Assembly: GCA_000002445.1 (NCBI GenBank)
Contig: CH464491.1
Coordinates: forward strand, 2,688,001 to 2,752,000
Direction: 5' to 3'
From: Trypanosoma brucei
Taxonomy: Eukaryota
Length of the DNA stretch: 64,000 nucleotides
In this document: positions 3,317 to 56,284 of the stretch, one piece after another
How the letters are laid out: every line of letters begins with the position of its first letter
Numbering within the stretch: the first letter of the stretch is position 1
Translations under genes and position numbers: made by a program
Notes under the pieces: model-generated
The model's input: only the letters and a program-made list of their open reading frames with translations
What the model was told of the DNA's origin: nothing
The model's database searches: none

Positions 3317-6300
3317 ATGACCTCTCGCATTGAGAAGAGTGTTCGTGGTAAAGGAGCGGTGAAACTACGAGGGTTCCTGAAATCGAAGGAACAACTTTTT
3401 GCTACCAAACTGAGTAGCCCCCGCGTCGAATGCAGGGCAGGAAATGAGGAAAAGGGCGCTATGGGAGAAAAAGATGTGACTGGTGGGAGGCACGTGCACG
3501 GTGTTGTTGCGCCTCATCGCACTCTCGATACTGGCACCGCGTCCGTCCCTCTCCCAGCTAACCTCCCACCCGATGGTAAGGGAAAGAAGCTGCTGAATCC
3601 TCTGCGGAAGAAGTTACTGAGAGACCTTTCTGCTGACGAGGGCGGCTCGTTGCAGCATCTGCCGGCGAAACCCACTGGGCACAAGGAACTGGGTGCAATA
3701 AGAATCGCTACTGCAGACGTGTTCCCCGCTGGTGAGGCGCCTCACCGTCCTGCTGCACTATCGTCAGCTGTGTTATCCTCGCCCATGCAGGGTTTGAAGA
3801 CAGCTGCAGGTAAGTTGAACCCACCGGTAGGTATAGGACGCAAGAAGCGCCAACAGAAGTTGCAAAAGGCACAACTCGCGTCTACCGTTCGAGTAGAACG
3901 ACTCAGGAGTGACGGCACTTCCAGATGCGGGAAGAAAGGTAGCGTCAAGGTTCCCTCCGAGTGCTCCAGTCTTAATTCTAGCATCACATGTACAGTTAAC
4001 ACAAATGATTGCGCGGAACTGGACAGAGAGAGTGGTGTAGACGACATCGACGATCCAAACGATGACAACGCACAAGAACTATCTGCTAATGAGTTAGGTG
4101 ACGAGCTAGCGCCTTATGATGAGGTGGATGAAGAGGAGGCAGTGCAGCGGTACATGGGAAGCCACAGAGCCTCAACTTCGCCGAAAAAGACGGAGGACAG
4201 CGTCTCACTCAATCGGTGCCTCAGCGATCCATCGCTGTCAAACACATTGTGTGACGCACGTGCTGCACCGCTGGATCGTCCCAACAGCGCAATCGGAAGT
4301 TGTGCTGCTCCAGAAGATTTGCAACGGTCACTCGATGAAAAAATGGAAGAAAGTTCCCGGCGGCCATCCACTGCCGGTCAGCTGGGGGAGGGCACCAGTA
4401 GTTTCGGCACGCAAAAGGCTTCAGAACTCTTCAATGACAGCCTTTGCCGCTCCCTGAGTTTGTATGACGCGTTTTTCCTCAATGAAGACGGGACTACTTG
4501 GCTTGTTGATGACCGTGTTCTCGCTAGATGCCTAAATTATATCGGGCTTATGGATTACGAGCACGAGCTCCACGGACTGCGGCGCACTACAGGGAACAAC
4601 TTGAGTGCTTCTGCATGGGCGCAGCTTTCGTCCCCTGTGAAACGCAATGTGATGCCATCGTCTGTGGCATCTGCGGCGCCGCCGCTTCGGTGCACTACTT
4701 CTCCCAACTTTGTGAACAGTAGCAATTCTTTTTCGGTGGGGCAGAGTAAGCTGTGCAAAGCTCCAGAGTCGCGAGGAGGCCGTCCTGATTTTCCTACCCT
4801 CTTCCTTGACATCGACGAGACAATGAGATGGCTCTCTGGACAGGAATATGTCATAGGAACCATCCTAGCATGTTGTACGCGCGACAGCGATGCCTCTGAA
4901 GACGGGAATGTTCAGCCGTACTTGTCCCCTGCAGTTCATCCCATAAAGCAAATTGCCACAATTGTACGGGAATGTTACCCCCATTGGGGTAGCACAGTCC
5001 GTTTTGCGGACGCATGGGAGAAGCAGGTTGTCCTTGTTCTTGGTACATCCTCACCATCGCATCAGTTACTGTTCCCGTTTCCGGAGGAGGGCATATTCTT
5101 CTCGTCCGACATGGAGGGTGGAAATATTGCTCGCGTGGAACGTATGCCCGAGTCAACACTACTGCATCTACAGCAATATCCACAGCAGCCGAATGGGATC
5201 GGCTTTTCATTGTGGATGGAACCTGAACCCGGATGCGGGCAAAGGTTGTGGTTTCGTTTTGCTTTCGCCGGCGTCAAACCTCATACGTCGGTGACTTTGC
5301 GATTAGTTAACATTCAACCCACCACAAAACTATATGGTCGGAATGGCATGCGACCTGTGTGGAGGGCAGGGAATTGCCTCCGGCAGTGGGTGCCAGTAGC
5401 GCAGTGCTCATATCGCACAACAAATGACGAGGCTGATGGGGAACTGACGTTTGTCATAACACCCCGTACAAATGATGTCATTCATGTGGCGTTCTGCGTT
5501 CCCTACACATATGCTGATTTACTCTGCCACATTACCCACTGGCATAACTTGGTTAAAAATAGTACGTGCGATATTTGGTTTGAAGAGCGTGTGTTGTGTT
5601 ACACGCAGGATGGTCGCAAACTGCACATGCTTATCATAACGAGTTCCTCTACGAAAACTAATCAGCGGCACCGGAGCAAGCGGAAAGTGGAAGGCAGCAA
5701 CAGCGCCAATAATGGAGCTTGCGGCCCTACAGCCTGCAATGCCAACTCCAATGGCGGTGGCGGTAACCCGTCTCGTAAGCCCATTGTTGGACCATACTCT
5801 CAGTTCGAGAAGGGTAAGAAGGTCGTGCTGGTGAGTGGCCGCGTGCATCCCGGGGAAACAACAGCATCCCATGGTGTTCATGGCGCAATTTCCTTCCTTC
5901 TTTCCCGCGACCCACTAGCGGCAAAGCTACGGGACAATTTTATCTTTTATATTGTACCTATGTTAAACCCCGACGGTGTCTCCAGGGGTCACACTCGGCT
6001 TGACCAGAACGGATTTAACCTTAATCGCTGTTATAACAGGCCGATTCCTCAGACACAACCCACTGTGAGCGCCCTCCGCAAGGTGTTCGACCATCTGCGC
6101 CAAGTGTTTGACGACCGCTTCTTCATGTATTTGGACTTTCATTCGCACGTTTCGCAGTCTAGCTGTTTCGCCTTCGGTAATTGCCTCCCGGCGACGGTGC
6201 AGCACTGGAATATGCTCTTTCCAAAGATCATCAGTTTACACGCGAAGGAGCTCTTTGGGTACTCGATCTGCCGATTCGGACGCGGCCACATGTTGAGTAA

Positions 6301-6895
6301 GGAGGGAAGTTCGCGCGTGCTTTTTGGCGCCGGCCTCATCCACTCCTACACCATTGAACTCACGTATTTCACAAACAACCGGCTGTACATTGACGGTCTG
6401 TTGGCTGGCGGCACGTCCAACATTATGGATGGAGAATCGTGGGAGGACCGATACACCCATACACAGATCGTGCCGCAGCGCAGCCCCGTCGCCCACAACG
6501 CCAGCACTGTTACACCCCTTAATGAACAGGGTACGGCAGTTGGAGCCGTCAAAAGTAGCAAGTGCGTCCGTAGCAACTCACAACAGAAGAGGCTAAAGAA
6601 GCGTGATGTCACCAAGATCCCCAGTGACTGTGGTAATGGCAAACCAGAACTGTTGAGGCAGATTAGGGTACCGTGCATTCTGGCGCAAAGCGCTGAAGTC
6701 GGTCGTTCGTGCATGCTTTCTTTGCTCGACTACTGCTCTGTCGATAACTACATATCACCACAGTTTGCAGCGTATGGAGGGATGGAGCGAATGCTGCGGG
6801 ATGTCAAACGCCACATGGGTTCACCGACCGCCGCGAAGCCGGGGTCATGCAGACTGCAGTTCATTTACAAGCAACAGCAACAACTGCAGCAATAA
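3317..6895 (+). CDS. cytosolic carboxypeptidase, M14 family (CCP/Nna1-like, putative tubulin deglutamylase) with long N-terminal extension
   Basis: FSSDMEGGNIARVE N-domain motif (CCP FESGNL-like); zinc-binding HPGET, NPDGV, and later FHSH ligand typical of M14 CCPs; 1192 aa. Confidence 0.75.
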   Translation: MTSRIEKSVRGKGAVKLRGFLKSKEQLFATKLSSPRVECRAGNEEKGAMGEKDVTGGRHVHGVVAPHRTLDTGTASVPLPANLPPDGKGKKLLNPLRKKLLRDLSADEGGSLQHLPAKPTGHKELGAIRIATADVFPAGEAPHRPAALSSAVLSSPMQGLKTAAGKLNPPVGIGRKKRQQKLQKAQLASTVRVERLRSDGTSRCGKKGSVKVPSECSSLNSSITCTVNTNDCAELDRESGVDDIDDPNDDNAQELSANELGDELAPYDEVDEEEAVQRYMGSHRASTSPKKTEDSVSLNRCLSDPSLSNTLCDARAAPLDRPNSAIGSCAAPEDLQRSLDEKMEESSRRPSTAGQLGEGTSSFGTQKASELFNDSLCRSLSLYDAFFLNEDGTTWLVDDRVLARCLNYIGLMDYEHELHGLRRTTGNNLSASAWAQLSSPVKRNVMPSSVASAAPPLRCTTSPNFVNSSNSFSVGQSKLCKAPESRGGRPDFPTLFLDIDETMRWLSGQEYVIGTILACCTRDSDASEDGNVQPYLSPAVHPIKQIATIVRECYPHWGSTVRFADAWEKQVVLVLGTSSPSHQLLFPFPEEGIFFSSDMEGGNIARVERMPESTLLHLQQYPQQPNGIGFSLWMEPEPGCGQRLWFRFAFAGVKPHTSVTLRLVNIQPTTKLYGRNGMRPVWRAGNCLRQWVPVAQCSYRTTNDEADGELTFVITPRTNDVIHVAFCVPYTYADLLCHITHWHNLVKNSTCDIWFEERVLCYTQDGRKLHMLIITSSSTKTNQRHRSKRKVEGSNSANNGACGPTACNANSNGGGGNPSRKPIVGPYSQFEKGKKVVLVSGRVHPGETTASHGVHGAISFLLSRDPLAAKLRDNFIFYIVPMLNPDGVSRGHTRLDQNGFNLNRCYNRPIPQTQPTVSALRKVFDHLRQVFDDRFFMYLDFHSHVSQSSCFAFGNCLPATVQHWNMLFPKIISLHAKELFGYSICRFGRGHMLSKEGSSRVLFGAGLIHSYTIELTYFTNNRLYIDGLLAGGTSNIMDGESWEDRYTHTQIVPQRSPVAHNASTVTPLNEQGTAVGAVKSSKCVRSNSQQKRLKKRDVTKIPSDCGNGKPELLRQIRVPCILAQSAEVGRSCMLSLLDYCSVDNYISPQFAAYGGMERMLRDVKRHMGSPTAAKPGSCRLQFIYKQQQQLQQ

Positions 6896-7445
6896 GAATA
6901 GTGCAACGAGAAGTGTGGATAGGGGGAAGGGAAAGATAGCGGGTGTGGGAGACGATAGGAACGGAAAGACTGTGCTCGTAAAGAGAGTTGGAGAGAGATA
7001 TCGGTTTTGTTGCTACTGAGAGGGAGGAAAGGATGGTTGATTTACTTGTATATGGTCCATTGACACTGTTTCCTCCCATTCTTTTTTACCTTGTTTGTAT
7101 TATTTCCAAGTTTCACGCTGTTTCCCTCTAATTAAATTACATTCTTCTGCAGTTGTTGACATTCGTCCTTTTTAACAACGACAGATAATCGGGCGCCTGC
7201 CTGTTTATACCCTTCGACAGCGCCTTCTCTTCCCACCAAGCTGGTATTTAGTTTCATCTACTTGGCGTTGCGGTAGTTGGACCGCTTCACATGTACGCGT
7301 TCAAATGTATATTTATGAATATTTATAGTTTCCTCCCCCACCCGCCCTGCACTCCCCCTCATGTTGCCCATCTTCTTGGGGCGCGTCCACTCACATGTGG
7401 TTTCTGTATGCGTATATTGGTGGTGGTGTTTTACGGCAAGAGGGG

Positions 7446-7800
7446 ATTCCTCTCTTCCCCTCCTCGTACACCCTTTCCCTTTTTTTTGTGTTTTCATCCG
7501 TTCGTCTATTCAAGTTCTTTCCTTTTTTGTCCTTTTTTTCTTTTTTGCTTCAACAGTTAACAACGACTTTTTTTCATTTTTCACCATCCTCTTTCTATCC
7601 ATCTCCTGTTATTCCATTTCTTTGTTCGTTCACGTCGGTGTGCTTCACTTTTTGTGTAATTTTCCTTTTCTTTGTTTTTGTGCTAGATTGTTCCTGCTTT
7701 TTTGTACCTACTCTATTGCACAGTAGCTTAATCACTTTTTTCTCGTTCTCTTTCCCTTTTATTTTCCACGTTTCTTTTTACCACATATCTGTTTCCGTTG
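7446..7800 (+). promoter_or_regulatory. extended polypyrimidine (CT-rich) tract; candidate trans-splicing/polyadenylation signal region upstream of NASP-like gene
   Basis: >300 nt almost purely C/T on coding strand, followed by AG dinucleotides and the ATG at 8112; typical trypanosomatid intergenic architecture. Confidence 0.55.
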
Positions 7801-7979
7801 TTGCCGCGCCGCTGGGCAGCAAACAAAGTGGGGGAGATTACTTCTCTTGTTTATTTGTTGTGCGTGCGACTCCATACACGCTGCCGAAGGGTGAAAAAAC
7901 AGTGATTGTAGGCGTAGGACAGTGCGGACGGAAACGGAGAAAGGTTGAGACCCCCGAAGTGCGACGCAACAGCGATCGG

Positions 7980-7998
7980 TATATATATATATATATAT
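7980..7998. repeat. (TA)n microsatellite
   Basis: tatatatatatatatatat. Confidence 0.9.
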
Positions 7999-8111
7999 TT
8001 GGAGGGGGAGAAGAGTTAAGGTAATTAGACAGTGGTACTCCCAACGGAAGTTGAGGGTGGGGGGGGACATTTCCCGCGCAAGAAAACAGAAGGTGTGTGT
8101 TTCGTGTTTTT

Positions 8112-9347
8112 ATGAGCCACCCACAGCAGCAGCAGCGGGTGGCGGAGGCCGCGGTGAGGAATGACCAGGGAGAGCAGCAGTTGACGGGTGTAAAGCCCGG
8201 GGAGAAGCAAGCTTCGAGGCAAGCGGAGGGCACCGAGGCATCTTCCTCAGAGAGCAACTGCAGCAGTGAAAGCTCTGAGGAAATCGTTCCTTTTAATAGT
8301 GAAGAAGAGGCCGTAGCAATGCGTGCTGTTGGGCTAGAACTGTTCAACAAGCACAACTATGAGGAGGCCCTTGACGTTCAGTACCGTATTGTACGCTATT
8401 TTGAGAACAAATACGGTGCGACATACCCCGAATGTGGCATATACTTCCTTGACTACGGCCTCTCGCAGCTGCGCATGATACAGTCCGCCAGCAGTATGGA
8501 GGCAGCTCTTGACCCCCTTGATCACGACGCCCTCGAGGCGTGTTTTACAAACCTCGATGTGGCTCGTGTATGTTTTCAAAAACAGGAGCGGAGCCGCGGT
8601 GAGAATGATGTTGAGGTTCAGCTGCGTCTGGCCGAGGTCCACAACGCGATTGCACAGGTTCAGGTTGAACGTGAAGCATATGAAGAGGCTCTCAAGGAAT
8701 ATGAAAGTGAACTGTTCATTTACAGGTATCTTGAGCAGGAGATCCCTGCGTCTTTACCCTATGGACGACTTGCCGCAGTACTCTATGAGATAGCCGACTG
8801 TTATATGAAGGAAGGTGACTTTGAAGGTGCGGAGGAGCGGTTCATCAAGGCGATCGAAGAAATCGAGAAATTTCCCGAAGGCAAAGTTGATCCAAAACTC
8901 GTAGAGCAGATGCGGGAGCTTCTTGAAGATGCCCGGGAGATGAAGGATGGTCGCTTTAAGGAAATACAGGAGTTCATCCAAGAGCAGTTCGCAGTGAATG
9001 AAACGGAGCGGCTGCCCACAGCGCACGAGTTCTATGGTGACGTGGATGAACAGCAGCATCCCTTTGTCTCGCGGCTCCCTAATGATGGGGAGTGTTCCGC
9101 CCTGTCGATGCCGCAGTCTAACACGAACCCTGTGCAATGGAGTGAGCACAGCAACAGTATGTCACTTTCATTGTTTCCTTCGCAAGTAAATGGTCGTTCG
9201 TCGGAGGCATCTAATAGTCAACCCGTGCAACATGTAGTCGCAAGAAGGAAGCCTAAACCTCTACAGAAGCAGAAGGCGCTGGAAGTAGAGAGCAGCGGTA
9301 ACGTCAGTACGGGCTCCGATATGAAGCGCTTCAGGGCGGAATCATGA
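8112..9347 (+). CDS. NASP/SHNi-TPR-like histone H3-H4 chaperone candidate (Q-rich, acidic N-terminus)
   Basis: ORF-track start 8097 is GTG; first ATG at 8112. GATYPECGIYFLDYGLSQLRM resembles the SHNi-TPR 'P-E-C-A-x-x-Y-F-x-Y-G-K-A-L-L-E' motif; later LAEVHNAIAQVQVEREAYEEALKEYESEL and YGRLAAVLYEIADCYMKEGDFEGAEERFIKAIEEIEK are TPR-like repeats interrupted by acidic stretch. Confidence 0.5.
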   Translation: MSHPQQQQRVAEAAVRNDQGEQQLTGVKPGEKQASRQAEGTEASSSESNCSSESSEEIVPFNSEEEAVAMRAVGLELFNKHNYEEALDVQYRIVRYFENKYGATYPECGIYFLDYGLSQLRMIQSASSMEAALDPLDHDALEACFTNLDVARVCFQKQERSRGENDVEVQLRLAEVHNAIAQVQVEREAYEEALKEYESELFIYRYLEQEIPASLPYGRLAAVLYEIADCYMKEGDFEGAEERFIKAIEEIEKFPEGKVDPKLVEQMRELLEDAREMKDGRFKEIQEFIQEQFAVNETERLPTAHEFYGDVDEQQHPFVSRLPNDGECSALSMPQSNTNPVQWSEHSNSMSLSLFPSQVNGRSSEASNSQPVQHVVARRKPKPLQKQKALEVESSGNVSTGSDMKRFRAES

Positions 9348-10611
9348 GCAAGCAGCCCGCAGTTGCTCGAATCAACGGGCGTCCGATGTCGAAGCATCTC
9401 TTTCTTTTTTTTTTTTACAAAAAAACCTATACAAGCATACATGAATTCAGGACGTGTGTGTTTAGTGCTTTATTTTATTGAAGAATGCTGTGTGCGTATT
9501 GTTAGACTATTTCAAGCAATGGTGACGTATGGGAGACGAGTAGTGTTGACTCCGGAAACTAGTGAAACCCCGTGCGTTGTAACAGACGGATGCTTTTTGC
9601 ACTTCCACTTATATTTTTTTCACTCGCGCAGAGGGCGGTGGCGGCGGTAGAACGTCTGTGGTAGGGCAATCGGCTTCAAAAAACATTAGCGAGCTGGCAA
9701 ACAGCTTTTAATACCTTCCTTGAGCACCTTTCCTGATATATACCTGTTCATCAAATTACAAAAAAAAAAAAGAAAACACCGATGGAAACTTTCGAGTGAT
9801 GAGTATTCCCGAAAAGTGTGTACGAGATGCCCTCTCTTTACAGCAACCCAACACACTTTTCGGGAATTGGGATTACTACAACATTATCGCTATGCCGCGC
9901 AGCGGGATCGGTTGGACCACGCCTGAAGACCCATCTCTTCTCCCGGTTCTGATACTCTTCGTCCCCACTAGACAGGGCCGACGCTTGCCAGGGAGAATTG
10001 CCCGCTGTCCCTGGTGGGTTTGTGCATGCATTGCAACGCATAGCAGCCGCATAGAGATTAATTTGTGAGGTATATATATATATATACATGCTTGTGCAGG
10101 AGGACGAGATAATGATTGGCCAGGGAGGTGTGCATGGTTGTACTGGGGAGAACATTAATCCAGCACCTCCTCCATCTTTCTTCCTCATTACTATTATTAT
10201 TGTAACTGTCATTATTGTTGTCTTTTGGTGTTTGATCACGTGAAGAAGCCGTAATCACTGCAGCGCCGAGTACAATGTCGCCCTTACCCACCCCGTCTTC
10301 CTTACTTCTTTGACAGGTACGTTCCAATAGTTATTTCTGTTTGGGCGGGAGTTAAAGGAGATCATATATATTTCTTTCTGTTTAACCAGGGAATAAACGC
10401 CATTAATTATCGCGGTCCCCAAGCACGTTAGTAACGGTAAGCGGAAAGAACATGCATGGGTGGAAGCACTTGGTTTTGATACGAACACACAAACTTCCCA
10501 CGGCTCTCTGGTACTGCATTTCCAATTTCACATGAACTCTCACCTAAGTTGCGGGCAAACGCAGAGAAACCCACGGAGAAAGAGGGAAGTGTTAGATCAC
10601 TTTACAACAAC

Positions 10612-11811
10612 ATGATACATCTCCCAACATCAACTACACCCACCGGTGACGGAACTACGAGCTGGTTCACTCTTACGGACTCGCATTGTCACCTTAAGTT
10701 GGATATCAACACAAGGAGGAGCACTTCACCAGCAAGCTCGGGACATGTGCCGTTTGTATGTGGTATCAAGCGGGCTGTTATATGTGGTACTCACCCCGAT
10801 ATCGACTGGGGCCTCATTGAGGATGTTGCAACATCACCTCCAACATTGGAGGTGCAATCGGCTTCCGAATCTGAGGAATCATGGAGCGGTGCTATCATCC
10901 CCGGTTTCGGCATTCACCCGTGGTTCGTCCCATATGCTGAAGAGGGGAAGGAAGGGACCGCGTGCGTAACTAATGGAAAGGAGGAGAGAGAAGAGGGATC
11001 GACTAGCGCTTGCAGGTGCTGCTGCCATGCTAATGCCACTTCGACAAATGTGGTGCGCCGAAGCCCGAGGGAGCTGCTAGATCTCTTGGAAAGGGCCCTG
11101 GAGCGATTCCCGCAGGCTATCGTTGGTGAGATCGGCCTGGACAAACTGCGCGGCCCACCTGAACCTGTACAGCTGGAGCTATTTTTGGGACAGATGAAAC
11201 TCGCCGCCCGCTACGGGCGCCCGGTATCGGTGCATTGTGTGCGTAGCTTCGGCACCATGTTGTCGGCGTTGCAGCAGCTTGCCTTCGAAGACACACCACC
11301 GTCGATTGTGCTCCATGGCTTCACGGGATCGCTCGACTTCGTACGATCGGCCATAAAAATTCAGAAGAGGGGACCTTTTGTCATCGGTACAGGTTCACGT
11401 TCGAAGCCCAAGGCGCGGCCGCTCCGCATTTTCTTTGGTGTGGGTGCCGCAACAAGTTTTCGGGTGAAAGGTTTTGTGGATAAGGTACTGCCTTTCCTGC
11501 TTAAGGAGGGGCGTGCGTTACTGGAAACGGATGCCCATCATATATTTGCCCGCAGCAATGATACAACTCCCACATTTGTACCTTCGCCAGGTCGGTCCCC
11601 ACGAGTTCCTTCAGCTTCAGGAGGCGGTGTGGAGCGTCATGAACAACGAAGATGCGTGCAGAGGTTGGAGGTGCTTGGGTGTGAACAACTGGGGCAACTC
11701 CTTTGGTTGGCAAGTGATGGTGATATCAGGGTGGCGAGGGATATAGTGGAAGGTTGTGAGAGGACTTGCAAGGACGTCTTCTCGTTTGCGGGTGTGTTAC
11801 CTGGTGTTTAG
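10612..11811 (+). CDS. TatD-family metal-dependent hydrolase/DNase with internal Cys-rich insertion
   Basis: ORF-track start 10549 is TTG; first ATG 10612 lies just before the TatD motif DSHCHL; further TatD motifs GEIGLD, VSVHCVRSFG, VLHGFTGS, and C-terminal D (ETDAHH). Confidence 0.7.
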   Translation: MIHLPTSTTPTGDGTTSWFTLTDSHCHLKLDINTRRSTSPASSGHVPFVCGIKRAVICGTHPDIDWGLIEDVATSPPTLEVQSASESEESWSGAIIPGFGIHPWFVPYAEEGKEGTACVTNGKEEREEGSTSACRCCCHANATSTNVVRRSPRELLDLLERALERFPQAIVGEIGLDKLRGPPEPVQLELFLGQMKLAARYGRPVSVHCVRSFGTMLSALQQLAFEDTPPSIVLHGFTGSLDFVRSAIKIQKRGPFVIGTGSRSKPKARPLRIFFGVGAATSFRVKGFVDKVLPFLLKEGRALLETDAHHIFARSNDTTPTFVPSPGRSPRVPSASGGGVERHEQRRCVQRLEVLGCEQLGQLLWLASDGDIRVARDIVEGCERTCKDVFSFAGVLPGV

Positions 11812-12226: not shown

Positions 12227-14167
12227 ATGTTCTTCTGGGGTTCGTACAACTTTTTTGAACCCCGACAGGCGGACCCCCCTAATCGGCCGCCGCTGCGTTA
12301 CCCCGTATATGTGCCCCCGTCGCTTTCCATGATGGCTGACGCTGGGATTGCAGAGCCCGAGAAAATTTTAAAAACTGAACAGGACGACATCCAAAGCACA
12401 TTGCAACATGTGGACAACCATCGTATCGTCGTGAAGCTGATTGGTTGTGGCCAAAAACATTTGGTGGGGCTTATGGGCCTGGCCCCCAAATCAAGCATGG
12501 GTTCTGCTTTGCCGCGTAGGGAAGGTGCCGTCACATCTGATATCGGTTCGAATGTGACATATGCACTGTATGGCATGGGAAGCAATCACAGTGGCCAGTT
12601 GGGCCATCGCCTGCCAACGTACAGCACCACATTGGTAAAACTCCAATTTGAGGAGTTGTTGCCACCAGGAGTCACCGTTTCTAGCATTGCCTGTGGTGAT
12701 AAATACACAGTTGTTTCTACTTCCGATGGGCTTGCGTTCGCCGCCGGAGATAACAGCTTTAGTCAACTTGGTACAGTGGGAAAAGGGCTTGGTTTTGCTC
12801 CTGTTCGTGGTATACATAACATTAAGCGAGTCTTCGCCGGTGGTAACGCAACCTTCGCCCTAGATGGTAACGGCCAACTCTTCTCATGGGGTGAAGCACA
12901 GTACGGACACCTGTGCCATGGAGACAACGGCCAGCGGTTGGATGTAAAAACACTGAAAACTGTGAACACCAATGTTTCCGTGCCTACAAGGATCGAATGG
13001 TTCGTCCGCCGTCACGTTACTATTGTGGATGTGTCAGTATCCCGAAGTCACGTGGTGTGCCGTAGCGGCGATGAAGTGTACACGTGTGGTGATGGTACAT
13101 ATGGAAAGCTGTGCTCAGGGAGTTTCGAATCGTCGTACTTACCTGTGCGTGTCAAATTTCCAGAGCGTACCCACCCTGAGCGTGTCTGTGCCATTGCTGC
13201 TGGGGATGATCATACGCTAATTCTTCGCGAATCAAGTGCCGTTGGTGCCGTTGTTTATTACTTCGGCAAAGCAAAAAACGGTGATGGGCAGTTGATCCCA
13301 GACATCATATCTTTGCCATCAAACGTTCAAAATATATTCGCTGGGCGAGGAACGTTTTCTGCGGCAACAACGAGTGATGGGCTTTTGTACGTATGGGGAA
13401 AGCAAGTGTACACTGGCTTGTCAAACGGTACTTCAGGTAAGGCTTCTCGCAGTTACCCGTGTAGCGTTGTGGCTTTAGAATCACATAACATTACCAGCGT
13501 CGCCGCAGGCGCCACGTTTGTAGTGGCGACCGGTGGTGAAAGGCGTGCCTGTGAAGGCATCGCCAACGAAGGGGAAAGATGGGATATAGTGATTCCACAC
13601 GACGATAGAACTGAGTCAGGGTATGGCGATTCCTTCAGCTCGAGATACGAAAGTGCGGTTCAGGCGTTTCTCACACAGTACCTTGGTCCATCAGTCGCTG
13701 GAGCATATATATCTGGCATTCCAGAAGCTCCGTTGGCGACCAATCCGAACGCCAACAGGTTTAAACCCATCGGTGCACACTCCCTAACCGTAGGACAAAA
13801 GGTGCGGTTGTGGATGACAGACGTGTACGCATTAGCCTCCATAACGAAAGTGTTTGGACGCAAGGAGCAATCAAATCACGTTGATATCAGCGGCAAGACC
13901 AACGAAGAAGAAAGAGATCATCAACAACACCTTCAAATAAAGAATGAAGAGGAAGAGAAGGAAAATTTAGGGCTCTCAGAGGTCAGTGGCTCGGCCGATG
14001 CACCGGGTTATCGCTTCTGTATTGAGTGGCAAAGGGATGATTGGAGAGACGAGGAAGTTACGTTGTACTCTGACGATGAAACTTTAGAGGAAACAAACCC
14101 CAACAGATGGCAGCCACTGTGGTTCCTCTACGACGAAACAGCTGGAAACTATGTCGTCGGAAAATGA
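12227..14167 (+). CDS. RCC1 (regulator of chromosome condensation) repeat protein
   Basis: Repeated beta-propeller blade motifs YGMGSNHSGQLGH, AAGDNSFSQLG, SWGEAQYGHLCHGD, TCGDGTYGKLCSG, VWGKQVYTGLSNG; alternative ATG at 12329. Confidence 0.7.
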   Translation: MFFWGSYNFFEPRQADPPNRPPLRYPVYVPPSLSMMADAGIAEPEKILKTEQDDIQSTLQHVDNHRIVVKLIGCGQKHLVGLMGLAPKSSMGSALPRREGAVTSDIGSNVTYALYGMGSNHSGQLGHRLPTYSTTLVKLQFEELLPPGVTVSSIACGDKYTVVSTSDGLAFAAGDNSFSQLGTVGKGLGFAPVRGIHNIKRVFAGGNATFALDGNGQLFSWGEAQYGHLCHGDNGQRLDVKTLKTVNTNVSVPTRIEWFVRRHVTIVDVSVSRSHVVCRSGDEVYTCGDGTYGKLCSGSFESSYLPVRVKFPERTHPERVCAIAAGDDHTLILRESSAVGAVVYYFGKAKNGDGQLIPDIISLPSNVQNIFAGRGTFSAATTSDGLLYVWGKQVYTGLSNGTSGKASRSYPCSVVALESHNITSVAAGATFVVATGGERRACEGIANEGERWDIVIPHDDRTESGYGDSFSSRYESAVQAFLTQYLGPSVAGAYISGIPEAPLATNPNANRFKPIGAHSLTVGQKVRLWMTDVYALASITKVFGRKEQSNHVDISGKTNEEERDHQQHLQIKNEEEEKENLGLSEVSGSADAPGYRFCIEWQRDDWRDEEVTLYSDDETLEETNPNRWQPLWFLYDETAGNYVVGK

Positions 14168-16640: not shown

Positions 16641-16760
16641 CTACCTATTTTTTATTTGTCACTTTTTTTGTACATTTTCCCCTTCTTTTTTTAACTCTTG
16701 ATCATGGACGTGAAAAGTTAGGTTGGTTACTGGCTGTGCTATTTCTTTTTTTTTTACTTT
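16641..16760 (+). promoter_or_regulatory. polypyrimidine tracts upstream of PGAM5-like gene (spliced-leader acceptor region)
   Basis: ctacctattttttatttgtcactttttttgtacattttccccttctttttttaactcttg and tatttctttttttttttactttg precede ATG 16786. Confidence 0.5.
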
Positions 16761-16785
16761 GTTGGTGGTGCTTGTTTGTGATATC

Positions 16786-17700
16786 ATGACGGTGTTGTCA
16801 CGGGTGCTTCTGGGTGCAGCGGTGGGAAGTGTGAGTGCGGCATTTAACATAGCGTGGTGTGATTCATCATTGCAAAGCGGTTCTGTGCTTTCTGTAAACA
16901 GTTTACTGCCTGTGGATGAAATTATTAGAGCGGATGGAAAGAACGCCAGTCTTAAGTCTTGGGGTGTTCCGTGGGTTGAGGATTGGGACTGTCTTGAGGC
17001 GAAGGACGGAGCGGCGGGAAAAAGTTCGGGGCATAAACGCCAGCTGATTTTGATACGTCACGGGCAATACCAAAATGAGAAGAGTAGTGATGACCGGCAA
17101 CGCACTCTTACTCAACTTGGGGAGGAACAGGCGAGACTCACCGGAAGGTATTTGTGGCAGGCGTTTCAGCAGAAACGTTTGGTGAAGGAACTGGGTAGTG
17201 AACCGGCGCTTGGGGTTGATAACTTCATGGGCGGGTTGTTGCGTTTCCATGAGCCGAAAGAAATCTACGTCTCGGATATGACTCGTGCTCAGCAAACTGT
17301 CAAACTCATAACGGAAGCTTTTCCCTACCACATACGTGCGCGAGTAAAAACTGATCCCATTCTTAGGGAGCGGTATCCCTGTGACCCTCAGCCGCCGCAT
17401 AAGCACCGATCTGCAGCGCACAGCGACATGTTAGCGGTGGAGGAGGTGTTCAAAAAATATTTTCATAGACCCTTAAAGGACGAGTCGTCTGTCGAGGTTA
17501 TTGTGGGACACGCCAATGTCATTCGGTATTTGGTGTGCCGCGCACTGCAGTTGCCCCCAGAAGCGTGGCTGCGCATTTCGCTTCCCCACTGTAGCATCAC
17601 AAGTCTCGTGATTGGTGCAAACGGTCACGTCAGTTTATCTTCGCTTGGGTCGGCAGGGCACCTGCCCGTCGACATGGTCACAACTCATAACGTTCCGTAA
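16786..17700 (+). CDS. PGAM5-like histidine phosphatase (phosphoglycerate mutase family Ser/Thr phosphatase) with N-terminal membrane anchor
   Basis: ORF-track start 16723 is TTG; first ATG 16786 gives MTVLSRVLLGAAVGSVSAAF anchor; RQLILIRHGQY catalytic RHG motif; IVGHANVIRYLVCRALQLPPEAWLRISLPHCSITSLVI nearly identical in pattern to human PGAM5 [37 protein letters not shown]. Confidence 0.85.
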   Translation: MTVLSRVLLGAAVGSVSAAFNIAWCDSSLQSGSVLSVNSLLPVDEIIRADGKNASLKSWGVPWVEDWDCLEAKDGAAGKSSGHKRQLILIRHGQYQNEKSSDDRQRTLTQLGEEQARLTGRYLWQAFQQKRLVKELGSEPALGVDNFMGGLLRFHEPKEIYVSDMTRAQQTVKLITEAFPYHIRARVKTDPILRERYPCDPQPPHKHRSAAHSDMLAVEEVFKKYFHRPLKDESSVEVIVGHANVIRYLVCRALQLPPEAWLRISLPHCSITSLVIGANGHVSLSSLGSAGHLPVDMVTTHNVP

Positions 17701-18710: not shown

Positions 18711-18969
18711 CTGACCTCTTTTTTTTTTCTGTTCTGAGAGTGTATCTGTTTGCCTCCACCATAACGGGTACTACACATAACAACTACTTTGACAAACAAA
18801 GTTTGATTTACCTATCTTATTTATCTTGTTTCACATGGCACTGCGCATCATTTTATCTGCATTCGAAGAATCTGTATTATGTGCTCTCTCGCTTCTACTT
18901 TTCACGCCTCTCGTTCCTGTTTCTATTTCATTCACATATTTATCTTGAAGAAAGGTGCTCGTGGACCAA

Positions 18970-19989
18970 ATGGACGTGGGGTATTACGTTCCCCCTCGGT
19001 GCACCAGGCTTGTTTCCTCAGTCATGGATGCATTCGTTGGTGCCTCCGAGAGGCAGTTTAAGGAGATTGATGCCGCCTGTAAAATACAATCGTTGTACCG
19101 AATGTGGCGTGAGCGTTGTGCATACCGGCGTATTCGCAATGCCGCCCTAAACGTACAAAGATTGTACCGTGGCCACCTAGATCGCAGACGTGTGTTGGAG
19201 ACGCGGGCTCTGAATGCTGCCCTCCACGAGGGATCAGTCTACGAATATTACGCTTCTCTTATACAGGCTTGCTTCCGTGGTTACTATGTGCGTCGGTACG
19301 TGGACAACTTCTATGCAAGGAGAAGTTACGTTCAAATGACAGTAAAGGCATCTGACGCTGTGCGGGAGGCGGCGGAGGTGCAGTTGAAGGAGCAGCAGGA
19401 GCGTGAGGCGGCGGAGAAGATAAGAAGGAGAGATCTTAGGTACAAGAGGGCCACAGAGAAATTGCACTACATAACTTCCACTTTGAATTGTGGAGGGATA
19501 TACAAGCGTCCCACGGATATCTCCTCGGCGACAACAATATATGGAACGTGCGTGGAGGATGACATTCGGAATGGGTCGAAGGCCGTTCGTCGCCCACAGC
19601 TGGAAACGACAGTGCGCAATAGGCTGAAGATGGCCTCCGTGTCGGCCAGGAAGGAGAGAGGAGAGTGGGGCAGAAGACCACCCGCGTCTCAGGACCTTCA
19701 GCAAGCAGGAGGAGACACGGGTGAAAAGACGGATAGCATGATGTATTTTACTGTAACATCAGGCGCATGGAACCGTAGCGGCGTGAAGGGGTGTAGCCTT
19801 CCGCCCATTCGCGGTCCAGATGAAGTGGACGCGGTGAAATGTAACGTGGTGTCGCATTGTTGCATTGAGGACTTTCTGTCCACGTACGATGAAGAAAAGT
19901 TGAAGATAGAGCGTTCAGTAGACAAGAAAGAGATTGAGTTGGCACACAAAAAGCAGCGATTCACTGTCTCAGCCTCCGCTTCTCTATAG
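18970..19989 (+). CDS. IQ calmodulin-binding motif protein
   Basis: ORF-track start 18955 is GTG; ATG at 18970; IQSLYRMWRERCAYRRIRN, VQRLYRGHLDRRRV, IQACFRGYYVRRYV are consecutive IQ motifs. Confidence 0.5.
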   Translation: MDVGYYVPPRCTRLVSSVMDAFVGASERQFKEIDAACKIQSLYRMWRERCAYRRIRNAALNVQRLYRGHLDRRRVLETRALNAALHEGSVYEYYASLIQACFRGYYVRRYVDNFYARRSYVQMTVKASDAVREAAEVQLKEQQEREAAEKIRRRDLRYKRATEKLHYITSTLNCGGIYKRPTDISSATTIYGTCVEDDIRNGSKAVRRPQLETTVRNRLKMASVSARKERGEWGRRPPASQDLQQAGGDTGEKTDSMMYFTVTSGAWNRSGVKGCSLPPIRGPDEVDAVKCNVVSHCCIEDFLSTYDEEKLKIERSVDKKEIELAHKKQRFTVSASASL

Positions 19990-55063: not shown

Positions 55064-55417
55064 TATACAAACTCGTAGAGAGGTAGATGGGCATTGTCTC
55101 CCGTTGTCTGTCTTACCATCATTTTTCTTCACGCATATGTCACTACTTTTTTATACACCAGTCGGTGGCGATTGGTTATGTTGTCACGCACGCTCTTTAT
55201 ACATAGGAGCGCCTTGTTACTTGTACATTCACTTTGCATGAACACACGTGTGTGTGGTAAAAAAAAAAGCTATGGGGATGCGACAAGTTTATTTGTGGTG
55301 ATGTTGACAACAGTGATAATAGTGTCAGGGTTATGTATTGTTCTTTCCGTGCCATTTACCATCTGGGACTTAGGTAGGCTTAACTAAAAATTACTCAGAG
55401 AGGAACGTTAAACGCAG

Positions 55418-56284
55418 ATGCTCCGTCGCAGTGGTTGCTTCCTCAACATGGGGCTGGGGGACGAGTACGTGAAAAAGGTGTTCAACAGCGTGGCCAGCAA
55501 GTATGATATGATGAACGATGTTCTTTCGCTTGGCATACACCGCCTGTGGAAGCGCGAATTTGTCCGTGACTACGTACGACCGTGCCCTGGTGGATCGTAC
55601 GTTGACGTCGCTGGAGGTACTGGCGATATTGCCTTTCGCATAATTGATGAAGTGCGCCAGTTGGAACGGGGACTTCCAGGCCTTACACCTCCCGACTTTC
55701 GAGGAGTTGGTGTGACGGTTGTGGACATTAATGAACAGATGGTTCACGAGGGAGAGGCCCGGGCAGCACGGGAAGGATATGATGGTTTGGAGTGGATTGT
55801 CGCCAGCGGGGAGGAGCTTCCGTTGGATGACATGCAGTTCGATGGCTACACGGTATCGTTTGGCCTGCGGAATTTCAGTGACAGGCCGAAAGCCCTTCGA
55901 GAAGCGCATCGAGTGCTGAAAGTGGGTGGTGTACTGAGCGTGCTGGAGTTTAGCAAAGTCACGTGCTCGCTGCTGCGCGTGCCTTACGACGTGTGGTCTT
56001 ACGGTTTCATTCCACAAGCCGGCCGGATTTTGGCAAATGAGGAAAGCTATAGGTACCTTGTGGATAGCATTAGAGCCTTTCCCGATCAGGAGACCCTCGC
56101 AGAGATGATTCGGGAGGCGGGATTCGGTTACGTGAGGTATGATAATCTCTCTGGCGGAATCGCATGCGTACACACCGCAGTAAAAACGGAGGCTGTTCCA
56201 ATACATAAACCTAAGTCAGAGGTAGAAAACGCTATGGCGCAACAGGAGCGAGTGGTAGAAGACAGTAAAGTGGGGGCTGCATAG
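55418..56284 (+). CDS. COQ5: 2-methoxy-6-polyprenyl-1,4-benzoquinol methylase (UbiE/COQ5 family SAM methyltransferase)
   Basis: YVKKVFNSVASKYDMMNDVLSLGIHRLWKR (UbiE N-terminal signature Y-D-x-M-N-D-x-x-S-x-G-x-H-R-x-W-K); SAM motif I VDVAGGTGDIAF; post-I and motif II regions present. Confidence 0.85.
   Translation: MLRRSGCFLNMGLGDEYVKKVFNSVASKYDMMNDVLSLGIHRLWKREFVRDYVRPCPGGSYVDVAGGTGDIAFRIIDEVRQLERGLPGLTPPDFRGVGVTVVDINEQMVHEGEARAAREGYDGLEWIVASGEELPLDDMQFDGYTVSFGLRNFSDRPKALREAHRVLKVGGVLSVLEFSKVTCSLLRVPYDVWSYGFIPQAGRILANEESYRYLVDSIRAFPDQETLAEMIREAGFGYVRYDNLSGGIACVHTAVKTEAVPIHKPKSEVENAMAQQERVVEDSKVGAA

What the first reader, a model, noticed from the sequence alone, without database searches (positions are those of the whole stretch)
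8112..9347. Candidate NASP/SHNi-TPR histone chaperone in a kinetoplastid
The PECGIYFLDYG motif aligns with the SHNi-TPR hallmark (P-E-C-A-x-x-Y-F-x-Y-G-K-A-L-L). There are two further TPR-like helices (LAEVHNAIAQVQVEREAYEEALKEYESEL; YGRLAAVLYEIADCYMKEGDFEGAEERFIKAIEEIEK). The N-terminus is Gln/Glu/Ser-rich and acidic, as expected for the interrupted TPR of N1/N2-NASP-Hif1-Sim3 proteins that buffer soluble H3-H4. If correct, this is a highly diverged H3-H4 chaperone in an organism with divergent histones.
Basis: partly seen in the sequence, partly recalled or inferred. Interest (0 to 1): 0.5.

Follow-up and report, generated by a model that had tools for sequence, protein, structure and literature searches.

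The report
Trypanosome NASP histone chaperone homologue

Summary
The ORF is real: window 8112-9347 (+), 411 aa, 100% identical to T. brucei brucei TREU927 XP_829094.1, annotated 'hypothetical protein, conserved'. The NASP reading holds up by sequence, profile and fold.

- **Sequence:** human sNASP is the best PDB sequence hit (E 8.7e-9).
- **Profile:** a kinetoplastid family profile finds human and Arabidopsis NASP first, and profile-profile comparison with canonical NASPs gives 97-98% probability across the whole TPR core.

Three caveats apply. Pfam's SHNi-TPR model fails (9 bits against a cutoff of 21). The acidic tract lies N-terminal to TPR1, and the TPR2 insertion is only 16 residues and weakly acidic. 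Several polar H3-contact residues differ from human NASP, alongside changes in trypanosome H3 (R128L, R129C, Y54F).

It is not novel. Nabeel-Shah et al. 2014 (PMC4082323) list the T. b. gambiense allele (CBH18038.1) as NASP and describe the short TPR2 insertion and the N-terminal acidity. I found no experimental study. Histone binding is inferred, not shown. Interest is low.

The parts
8112..9347 (+). Complete CDS (411 aa plus stop) of the T. brucei NASP/SHNi-TPR homologue (XP_829094.1, UniProt Q383P9)
   Evidence: ORF, translation and 100% identity to the annotated TREU927 protein.
8112..8291 (+). Disordered N-terminal region (residues 1-60), Q/S/E-rich. The acidic and Ser-rich tract is residues 40-66 (nt 8229-8309).
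   Evidence: pLDDT 45-55; residues 40-66 have 8 D/E, 9 S and 0 K/R; orthologues have 11-21 D/E in the equivalent 30 residues.
8301..8414 (+). TPR1 (helices 64-79 and 83-101)
   Evidence: model, pLDDT >95. One search aligns it with sNASP TPR1. The segment is printed as T. brucei TPR1 in PMC4082323 Fig S1.
8427..8501 (+). TPR2 helix A (residues 106-130), including the PECGIYFLDYG motif (residues 106-116, nt 8427-8459)
   Evidence: aligned with human ECGEAFFFYGKSLLEL. G109, L113, D114, Y115 and G116 are invariant in 30 orthologues.
8484..8531 (+). TPR2 insertion (residues 125-140, SASSMEAALDPLDHDA): 16 residues, mildly acidic. It stands in place of the 59-residue or longer acidic insert of human NASP.
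   Evidence: exactly 16 aa in all trypanosomatids and 16-43 aa in the wider clade; only residues 131-137 are non-helical. PMC4082323 reports the same 16 residues.
8523..8597 (+). TPR2 helix B (residues 138-162). It is the counterpart of sNASP alpha4, which forms the H3 alphaN-binding surface (L141, E142, F145, D149, V150, V153).
   Evidence: residue map: L176>L, E177>E, W180>F (F/Y in 30/30), D184>D, L185>V, I188>V. Human contacts are taken from PMC9122598.
8610..8741 (+). TPR3 (helices 167-186 and 190-210). This is the region that Pfam SHNi-TPR weakly matches (residues 174-204).
   Evidence: E175, E186 and E196 are invariant.
8760..8867 (+). TPR4 (helices 217-234 and 237-252). It is the best canonical TPR and the counterpart of the sNASP H3 alpha3 groove (R219, A222, Y225, A247, I251).
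   Evidence: TPR_2 and TPR_1 at residues 221-249. R242>R, A245>A, Y249>Y, S271>A and I275>I, but E246 is lost, L253>D and Y257>K.
8892..8990 (+). Long C-terminal capping / coiled-coil helix (residues 261-293)
   Evidence: helix, pLDDT >90. LLEDAREMK aligns with human KIEDAKESQ. The register upstream of that point is ambiguous.
9009..9344 (+). Disordered C-terminal tail (residues 300-411) with four conserved short motifs: HPFVSRLP (nt 9057-9080), EHSNSMSLSLFPSQ (nt 9144-9185), PVQHVVARRKPKP (nt 9222-9260) and MKRFRAE (nt 9321-9341). The two basic motifs look like a bipartite NLS.
   Evidence: S351, S353, K380 and R408 are invariant across distant relatives; pLDDT <50; similarity to the metazoan DISHLVRKKRKP tail is only suggestive (6% probability).
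7440..7999 (+). Upstream intergenic region: long polypyrimidine tracts (7440-7800), of the kind that direct trans-splicing in trypanosomes, and a (TA)~10 run at 7980-7999
   Evidence: sequence read directly. The functional role is inferred from general trypanosome biology and was not tested.

Best explanation
The gene encodes the T. brucei orthologue of NASP, a member of the Sim3-Hif1-NASP 'SHNi-TPR' family. The protein is acidic (pI 4.7) and is predicted to be nuclear.

**Architecture (shown).**
- Four TPRs with extended TPR2 helices, followed by a capping helix.
- This core is flanked by a disordered acidic, Ser-rich N-terminus.
- The disordered C-terminal tail carries two basic, NLS-like clusters.

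**Mechanism (inferred from the human structures).** The protein probably buffers soluble, non-nucleosomal H3 or H3-H4 through two sites.
- The convex face of TPR2 helix B and TPR3 grips the H3 alphaN segment. In T. brucei H3 this segment is EIRQFQRS. This mode is compatible with ASF1 binding the same H3-H4 dimer.
- The concave TPR3-TPR4 groove, closed by the capping helix, takes the H3 alpha3 helix. Here it uses R219 as a helix cap and a hydrophobic pocket (A222, Y225, A247, I251) for H3 L126 and L130.

**What is shown and what is inferred.** Homology and architecture are shown. Histone binding, ASF1 cooperation and nuclear import are inferred.

**Differences from human NASP.** The polar rim of both sites differs from the human protein. 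The acidic tract has moved from inside TPR2 to the N-terminus.
For: **Sequence.** phmmer against all PDB sequences puts human sNASP first (E 8.7e-9, query residues 83-288). Kinesin light chain reaches only E 7e-4.

**Family profile against PDB.** sNASP scores 8.3e-10 and AtNASP 1.7e-9, ahead of every natural TPR protein.

**Profile-profile.** hhalign against 17 canonical NASPs gives 97.2% and 98.0%, E 1.5e-13, over 211 columns. That covers Tb residues 54-280 against sNASP 30-323.

**Model.** AF2 gives pLDDT >90 for residues 61-290, with 8 TPR helices and a 33-residue capping helix.

**Fold searches.**
- Foldseek ranks 1-8 are all NASP. The best has TM 0.82, rmsd 3.2 A and 26% identity.

**Functional residues (with human contacts from PMC9122598).**
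- alphaN site: L176>L141, E177>E142, W180>F145 (F/Y in 30/30), D184>D149, L185>V150, I188>V153, E217>E188, E225>E196 (invariant).
- alpha3 groove: R242>R219, A245>A222, Y249>Y225, S271>A247, I275>I251.

**T. brucei H3 (P0274).** It keeps I51, R52, K122, D123, L126 and R131. Y54 becomes F and I130 becomes L.

**Composition.** pI 4.69, with 75 D/E against 43 K/R.

**Independent publication.** PMC4082323 reached the same assignment by PSI-BLAST with reciprocal searches.
Against: **Weak or failed sequence tests.**
- Pfam SHNi-TPR (PF10516) scores 9.0 bits against a cutoff of 21. Only 2 of 30 kinetoplastid members and 1 of 19 distant members reach E<=0.01.
- Against a metazoan-only NASP HMM, the T. 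brucei protein's single-domain score is 23 bits. That is inside the range of generic repeat-rich TPR decoys, which reach up to 29 bits.
- The HMMsearch list in the 2014 paper also contains no Trypanosoma entry.

**Contact residues not conserved.**
- Two of the three residues of the human 'EYL' triad needed for H3 alpha3 binding are not conserved: E246 aligns to a gap or Ala, and L253 becomes D229.
- Y257 becomes K233, E97 becomes R121 and E224 becomes K195.

**Missing family feature.** The large acidic TPR2 insert typical of the family is absent.

**No experiments.** I found no experimental data for any kinetoplastid NASP.
Confidence: 0.85

Rival explanations
1. It is a true NASP-family homologue whose client has shifted. 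The rewired binding surfaces would mean it prefers something other than canonical H3-H4, for example a histone variant (H3V), H2A-H2B or a linker-histone-like protein. Alternatively it acts mainly as a scaffold for a HAT1-type complex and not as a buffer of soluble H3-H4.
For:: E246 is lost, and L253>D, Y257>K, E97>R and E224>K are all nearly invariant within trypanosomatids. So the polar specificity determinants differ systematically from human NASP. Family members are known to diverge in client. According to PMC8653785, two Hif1 molecules bind one H2A-H2B dimer in the crystal structure, and Sim3, Hif1 and NASP have partly different roles. The conserved Ser-rich C-terminal motif has no assigned function.
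Against: The hydrophobic cores of both H3 sites and the helix-capping Arg are retained. The matching H3 residues I51, R52, F54, L126, L130 and R131 are retained in T. brucei H3. Some of the changes look compensatory and do not look disruptive: H3 R128>L is paired with NASP E97>R, and NASP Q204>E175 could take over the H3 R131 contact from the lost E246.
Confidence: 0.1
2. It is a generic four-repeat TPR scaffold, of the Pins/LGN, kinesin-light-chain or co-chaperone kind, that resembles NASP only through shared TPR consensus and has nothing to do with histones.
Confidence: 0.04
3. The ORF is a chance open frame or a mis-annotated non-coding stretch.
For: None beyond its GenBank label, 'hypothetical protein'.
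Against: Full-length orthologues exist across Trypanosoma, Leishmania, Leptomonas, Angomonas, Cryptobia and unnamed environmental relatives, with invariant residues spread along the protein. The fold prediction is confident.
Confidence: 0.01

Closest known systems
Human NASP / sNASP (PDB 7V1K, 7V1L, 7V1M, 7V6P, 7V6Q)
   Same: - Four TPRs followed by a capping, coiled-coil helix.
- Collinear profile alignment over the whole core: 98% probability, 28% identity.
- Best Foldseek match: TM 0.82.
- The ECG..YG motif in TPR2 helix A and EDA(K/R)E in the capping helix.
- The helix-capping Arg, the Tyr of the alpha3 groove and the aromatic residue of the alphaN site are all retained.
- Acidic overall, with a basic C-terminal tail.
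   Different: - The TPR2 insertion is 16 residues and weakly acidic, against 59 residues deleted from the crystallised sNASP core and a further 339 in tNASP (PMC9122598, PMC8653785).
- The acidic tract is relocated to the N-terminus.
- E246, L253, Y257, E97, D181 and E224 are not conserved.
- Pfam SHNi-TPR is not detected.
- There is an extra conserved Ser-rich motif, SNSxSLSLFPxQ, in the tail.
Arabidopsis NASP (PDB 7W5M, in complex with an H3 alpha3 peptide)
   Different: I did not have its sequence as a protein id, so no residue-level comparison was made.
S. cerevisiae Hif1 (PDB 4NQ0) and S. pombe Sim3
   Different: Only 15% identity. The sequence searches here did not find Hif1. Hif1 works inside the nuclear Hat1-Hat2 complex, and no such partnership was tested for the trypanosome protein.
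Putative kinetoplastid NASP of Nabeel-Shah et al. 2014 (BMC Evol Biol 14:139; accession CBH18038.1)
   Same: It is the same gene. CBH18038.1 is the T. b. gambiense allele in the same 90% cluster. The paper's Figure S1 prints this protein's TPR1 and TPR2 segments. It already reports the 16-residue non-acidic TPR2 interruption and the N-terminal acidic residues.
   Different: That paper predates the sNASP-H3 structures. It therefore gives no mapping of H3-contact residues, no fold comparison and no description of the conserved C-terminal motifs. It contains no experiments on the trypanosome protein.

Membership tests
SHNi-TPR (Sim3-Hif1-NASP) family | Four tandem TPR motifs forming the core | tested here: met
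   The AF2 model has helix pairs 64-79/83-101, 106-130/138-162, 167-186/190-210 and 217-234/237-252, all at pLDDT >90. Generic TPR Pfam models match TPR3 and TPR4.
SHNi-TPR (Sim3-Hif1-NASP) family | TPR2 interrupted by an insertion between its two helices | tested here: met
   A 16-residue insertion (residues 125-140) lies between the conserved helix A and helix B blocks. It is 16-43 residues across the clade. Both TPR2 helices are extended to about 25 residues.
SHNi-TPR (Sim3-Hif1-NASP) family | The TPR2 insertion is a large acidic (D/E-rich) region | tested here: not met
   Only 4 D/E in 16 residues. The acidic, Ser-rich tract lies N-terminal to TPR1 instead. PMC4082323 noted the same.
SHNi-TPR (Sim3-Hif1-NASP) family | Pfam PF10516 (SHNi-TPR) above the gathering score | tested here: not met
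   9.0 bits against a cutoff of 21, E 1.3, at residues 174-204. Human and mollusc NASP score 46-51 bits. Only 2 of 30 and 1 of 19 clade members reach E<=0.01.
SHNi-TPR (Sim3-Hif1-NASP) family | Significant, collinear sequence or profile similarity to bona fide NASPs across the TPR domain | tested here: met
   phmmer E 8.7e-9. hmmsearch E 8.3e-10 for human and 1.7e-9 for Arabidopsis. hhalign 97.2% and 98.0%. Caveat: the single sequence scores only 23 bits against a metazoan-only HMM.
SHNi-TPR (Sim3-Hif1-NASP) family | Capping / coiled-coil helix after TPR4 | tested here: met
   Helix 261-293 at pLDDT >90. It aligns with the sNASP C-terminal helix, with EDARE against EDAKE.
SHNi-TPR (Sim3-Hif1-NASP) family | Fold closest to solved family members | tested here: met
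SHNi-TPR (Sim3-Hif1-NASP) family | C-terminal nuclear localisation signal | tested here: inconclusive
   Basic clusters RRKPKP (residues 378-383) and KRFR (residues 405-408) are conserved. Homology to the metazoan LVRKKRKP tail is not significant (hhalign 6%). Localisation was not tested.
SHNi-TPR (Sim3-Hif1-NASP) family | Residues of the H3 alphaN-binding site (sNASP L176, E177, W180, D181, D184, L185, I188, E217, E224, E225) | tested here: inconclusive
   Seven of the ten are identical or conservatively replaced, including W>F. D181>T and E224>K are not. H3 keeps I51 and R52, and Y54 becomes F. Binding itself was not tested.
SHNi-TPR (Sim3-Hif1-NASP) family | Residues of the H3 alpha3-binding groove (sNASP R242, A245, E246, Y249, L253, Y257, S271, I275) | tested here: inconclusive
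   R, A, Y, A and I are retained. E246 is lost, L253>D and Y257>K. The register of the capping-helix contacts (L306, E309, K313) is ambiguous.
SHNi-TPR (Sim3-Hif1-NASP) family | Physical binding of H3-H4 and co-chaperoning with ASF1 | not testable with these tools
   No experimental report was found.

The most novel reading that the evidence does not exclude
The kinetoplastid (and wider, probably euglenozoan) NASP clade may be a structurally rewired variant of the chaperone that co-evolved with the lineage's divergent H3. Three observations fit this reading.
- The salt-bridge pairs of the human complex are replaced together. H3 R128 with NASP E97 becomes L with R. The H3 R131 contact may move from E246 to E175. 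Y257 becomes K233, which faces H3 D123.
- The acidic tract has moved from inside TPR2 to the N-terminus.
- A lineage-specific, invariant Ser-rich motif (SNSxSLSLFPxQ) in the tail may be a phospho-regulated or partner-binding element, for example for an importin, ASF1 or a HAT1 complex. No such element has been described in opisthokont NASPs.
Probability: 0.3. Interest if true: 0.4.

Novelty: already known. Interest (0 to 1): 0.2.

Why it matters
Histone supply and deposition matter in T. brucei. From my own knowledge, not tested here, ASF1A, CAF-1 and FACT affect silencing of VSG expression sites. Trypanosome histones are also unusually divergent.

A confirmed NASP would complete the H3-H4 supply chain in an early-branching eukaryote. 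[quoted passage not shown] It would also offer a natural experiment in how a chaperone's binding surface tracks changes in its histone client.

The identification itself was published in 2014. GenBank still calls the T. brucei protein 'hypothetical'. It is not a discovery.

Tried and rejected
1. **Pfam SHNi-TPR as a membership test.** It fails for this protein and for almost the whole clade. I rejected it as decisive because the model is a 38-residue profile of TPR3 only, while the full-domain tests pass.
2. **Deep HMMER search of 1.84 billion representatives with the core profile.** It gave useful distant full-length relatives. Beyond about E 1e-30 the list is swamped by giant multi-repeat TPR proteins, so it did not reach canonical NASPs directly.
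3. **Decoy control.** A metazoan NASP HMM does not separate the T. brucei sequence alone (23 bits) from the best TPR decoys (up to 29 bits). Only the distant clade members (34-44 bits) are separated. I report this as a caveat.
4. **Homology of the C-terminal tail to the metazoan NASP tail.** The best local match is the expected one, but at 6% probability. I kept it only as a lead.
6. **Foldseek against AFDB50.** The library was unavailable.
7. **The look-up of encoding contigs for the window protein.** Nothing was on record, so I could not obtain the Tb927 gene ID and do not quote one.
8. **Literature searches for experimental work on kinetoplastid NASP**. I found none. The one TPR hit (Tb927.10.970) is an unrelated gene.
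9. **Gene-neighbourhood clues.** The neighbours are a V-SNARE, an M14 carboxypeptidase, a TatD nuclease and an RCC1-repeat protein. They are unrelated, as expected for trypanosome polycistrons.
Full report
**Observation.** The window holds an ORF at 8097..9347 on the + strand. From its first ATG at 8112 it encodes 411 aa. The protein is 100% identical over its full length to T. brucei brucei TREU927 XP_829094.1 / EAN79982.1 / UniProt Q383P9, 'hypothetical protein, conserved'. That protein lies on a 5.26-Mb contig, and the T. congolense orthologue is TCIL3000_11_10810. The N-terminus is Q/S/E-rich: residues 40-66 hold 8 D/E, 9 S and no K/R. Full-length orthologues occur throughout Trypanosoma, Leishmania, Leptomonas, Angomonas and Porcisia. 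Relatives at 26-38% identity include Cryptobia borreli and unnamed environmental sequences. This is a real, conserved gene.

**Sequence and profile evidence.** phmmer against all PDB chain sequences puts human sNASP first (7V1M/7V1K, E 8.7e-9, query residues 83-288). In that alignment PECGIYFLDYG falls on human ECGEAFFFYG. Kinesin light chain reaches only E 7e-4. A profile of 30 orthologues (A1) again finds human sNASP (8.3e-10) and 7W5M (1.7e-9) ahead of everything except designed consensus TPRs. Searches identify 7W5M as Arabidopsis NASP. I then assembled 17 genuine NASP sequences, using the human core residues printed as the query. Profile-profile comparison against them gave 97.2% probability, E 3.4e-11, over 175 columns. 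With first-sequence match columns it gave 98.0%, E 1.5e-13, over 211 columns, spanning Tb residues 54-280 against the entire crystallised sNASP core 30-323.

**Structure.** AlphaFold2 with the orthologue alignment gives pLDDT >90 for residues 61-290.
- There are eight helices forming four TPRs.
- The two TPR2 helices are extended to about 25 residues each and are joined by a loop of about 7 residues.
- One 33-residue helix follows (residues 261-293).
- Residues 1-60 and 300-411 are disordered.

**Caveats on membership.**
- Pfam's SHNi-TPR model scores 9.0 bits here against a gathering score of 21. Almost the whole clade fails it. The model is a 38-residue profile of TPR3, matching chain positions 118-151 of the human core. 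So it is neither the PECG motif nor the interrupted TPR2.
- I used as decoys the roughly 120 repeat-rich TPR proteins that the deep search retrieved. A metazoan-only NASP HMM scores the T. brucei protein at 23 bits in a single stretch, within the decoy range (up to 29 bits). Distant clade members score 34-44 bits.
- So the link rests on family-level profiles, intermediates and fold, not on the single sequence against a narrow HMM.
- In the same way, the 2014 paper's HMMsearch list contains no Trypanosoma entry, and its trypanosome sequences came from PSI-BLAST.

**Anatomy compared with canonical NASP.** The TPR2 insertion is exactly 16 residues in all trypanosomatids and 16-43 in the wider clade. 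In T. brucei it holds 4 D/E and no K/R. By contrast, 59 residues (101-159) are deleted from the crystallised sNASP core, and tNASP carries a further 339-residue insert (PMC9122598, PMC8653785). The acidic tract lies directly before TPR1 instead. T. brucei has the weakest such tract among trypanosomatids, with 7 D/E and 9 S in 30 residues against 11-21 D/E in the others. The whole protein has pI 4.69.

**Mechanism (inferred).** Bao et al. 2022 (PMC9122598) define two H3-binding modes in human sNASP. I mapped them through the alignment.

The alphaN site lies on the convex face, on alpha4 and alpha6:
- Conserved or conservatively replaced: L176>L141, E177>E142, W180>F145 (F/Y in 30/30 orthologues), D184>D149, L185>V150, I188>V153, E217>E188, E225>E196 (invariant).
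- Not conserved: D181>T146 and E224>K195.

The alpha3 groove is the concave face of TPR3 and TPR4:
- Conserved: the helix-capping R242>R219 and the pocket residues A245>A222, Y249>Y225, S271>A247, I275>I251.
- Not conserved: E246 has no counterpart, L253>D229, Y257>K233 and E97>R121. All of these are nearly invariant within trypanosomatids.

The register of the capping-helix contacts (L306, E309, K313) is ambiguous.

Genuine T. brucei H3 (P0274) reads EIRQFQRS where human H3 reads EIRRYQKS, so I51 and R52 are kept and Y54 becomes F. Its alpha3 reads GRVTIQPKDIHLALCLRGERA where human reads [21 protein letters not shown]. K122, D123, L126 and R131 are kept, I130 becomes L, R128 becomes L and R129 becomes C. 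Human H3 numbering is from my own knowledge and from the paper.

The hydrophobic anchors on both partners are therefore conserved. At least one lost salt bridge is lost on both sides: H3 R128 with NASP E97 becomes L with R. This is compatible with a conserved two-mode grip on H3 with a co-evolved polar rim, but it is inference only.

**C-terminal tail.** Four short motifs are conserved even in the most distant relatives: HPFVSRLP, EHSNSMSLSLFPSQ, PVQHVVARRKPKP and MKRFRAE. Metazoan NASPs end in ..IPVRKPADGASS..DISHLVRKKRKPEE..AKKxKQE. The best local profile match is exactly PVQHVVARRKPKP against DISHL-VRKKRKP, but at only 6% probability. A bipartite NLS is a reasonable guess. The Ser-rich motif is unexplained.

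**Context.** All but one ORF of 200 aa or more lie on the + strand, and cumulative GC skew rises steadily. This is typical of one trypanosome polycistron. The neighbours are functionally unrelated: a V-SNARE, an M14 carboxypeptidase, a TatD nuclease and an RCC1-repeat protein. Upstream lie long polypyrimidine tracts and a (TA)~10 run.

**Prior knowledge and novelty.**
- Nabeel-Shah et al. 2014 (BMC Evol Biol 14:139, PMC4082323) list T. brucei CBH18038.1 as a putative NASP.
- That accession is the T. b. gambiense allele in the same 90% cluster as this protein. Their Figure S1 prints this protein's TPR1 and TPR2 segments.
- They already report the 16-residue non-acidic TPR2 interruption and the N-terminal acidic residues.
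- UniRef names several orthologues 'Tetratricopeptide SHNi-TPR domain-containing protein'.
- I found no experimental study of a kinetoplastid NASP.

**Verdict.** The finding is already known at the bioinformatic level, and the function remains untested. Interest is low (0.2). The modest new content is the structure-based confirmation, the residue map of the H3 sites against trypanosome H3 and the conserved tail motifs.

Noticed in passing
window 9057-9341 (residues 316-410 of the protein): Four short motifs in the otherwise disordered C-terminal tail are conserved even in relatives at 26-38% identity: HPFVSRLP, EHSNSMSLSLFPSQ (S351 and S353 invariant), PVQHVVARRKPKP (K380 invariant) and MKRFRAE (R408 invariant). 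The two basic motifs look like a bipartite NLS and are collinear by eye with the metazoan NASP tail DISHLVRKKRKP..AKKxKQE, but hhalign gives only 6% probability. The Ser-rich motif has no assigned function.
   Followed up: partly
window 8229-8309, compared with orthologues in alignment A1: T. brucei has the least acidic pre-TPR1 tract of all trypanosomatid orthologues: 7 D/E plus 9 Ser in 30 residues, against 11-21 D/E in the others. The serines might supply negative charge through phosphorylation. That is speculation.
   Followed up: no
window 7440-7999 and about 10000-10100: The upstream intergenic region has long polypyrimidine tracts (7440-7800) and a (TA)~10 microsatellite at 7980-7999. 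A similar TA run downstream is implied by IYIYIY translations of mechanical ORFs near 10000-10100.
   Followed up: partly
window 1-64000: All but one ORF of 200 aa or more are on the + strand, and cumulative GC skew rises monotonically. This is consistent with a single polycistronic transcription unit. The neighbours of the NASP gene are a V-SNARE (1064-1861), a 1192-aa M14 zinc carboxypeptidase (3317-6895), a TatD-like nuclease (10549-11811), an RCC1-repeat protein (12227-14167), a histidine phosphatase (16723-17700) and an IQ-motif protein (18955-19989).
   Followed up: partly
window 55391-56284: Two mechanical ORFs of 271 aa (- strand, 55391..56206) and 288 aa (+ strand, 55418..56284) overlap almost completely on opposite strands. 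I did not determine which of them, if either, is coding.
   Followed up: no
P0279 (T. vivax H3, retrieved): The deposited T. vivax 'core histone' protein matches T. brucei H3 up to ..CIHSG. It then diverges into an unrelated 27-residue C-terminus, which looks like a frameshift or assembly error in that record. It was unusable for the alpha3 comparison.
   Followed up: no
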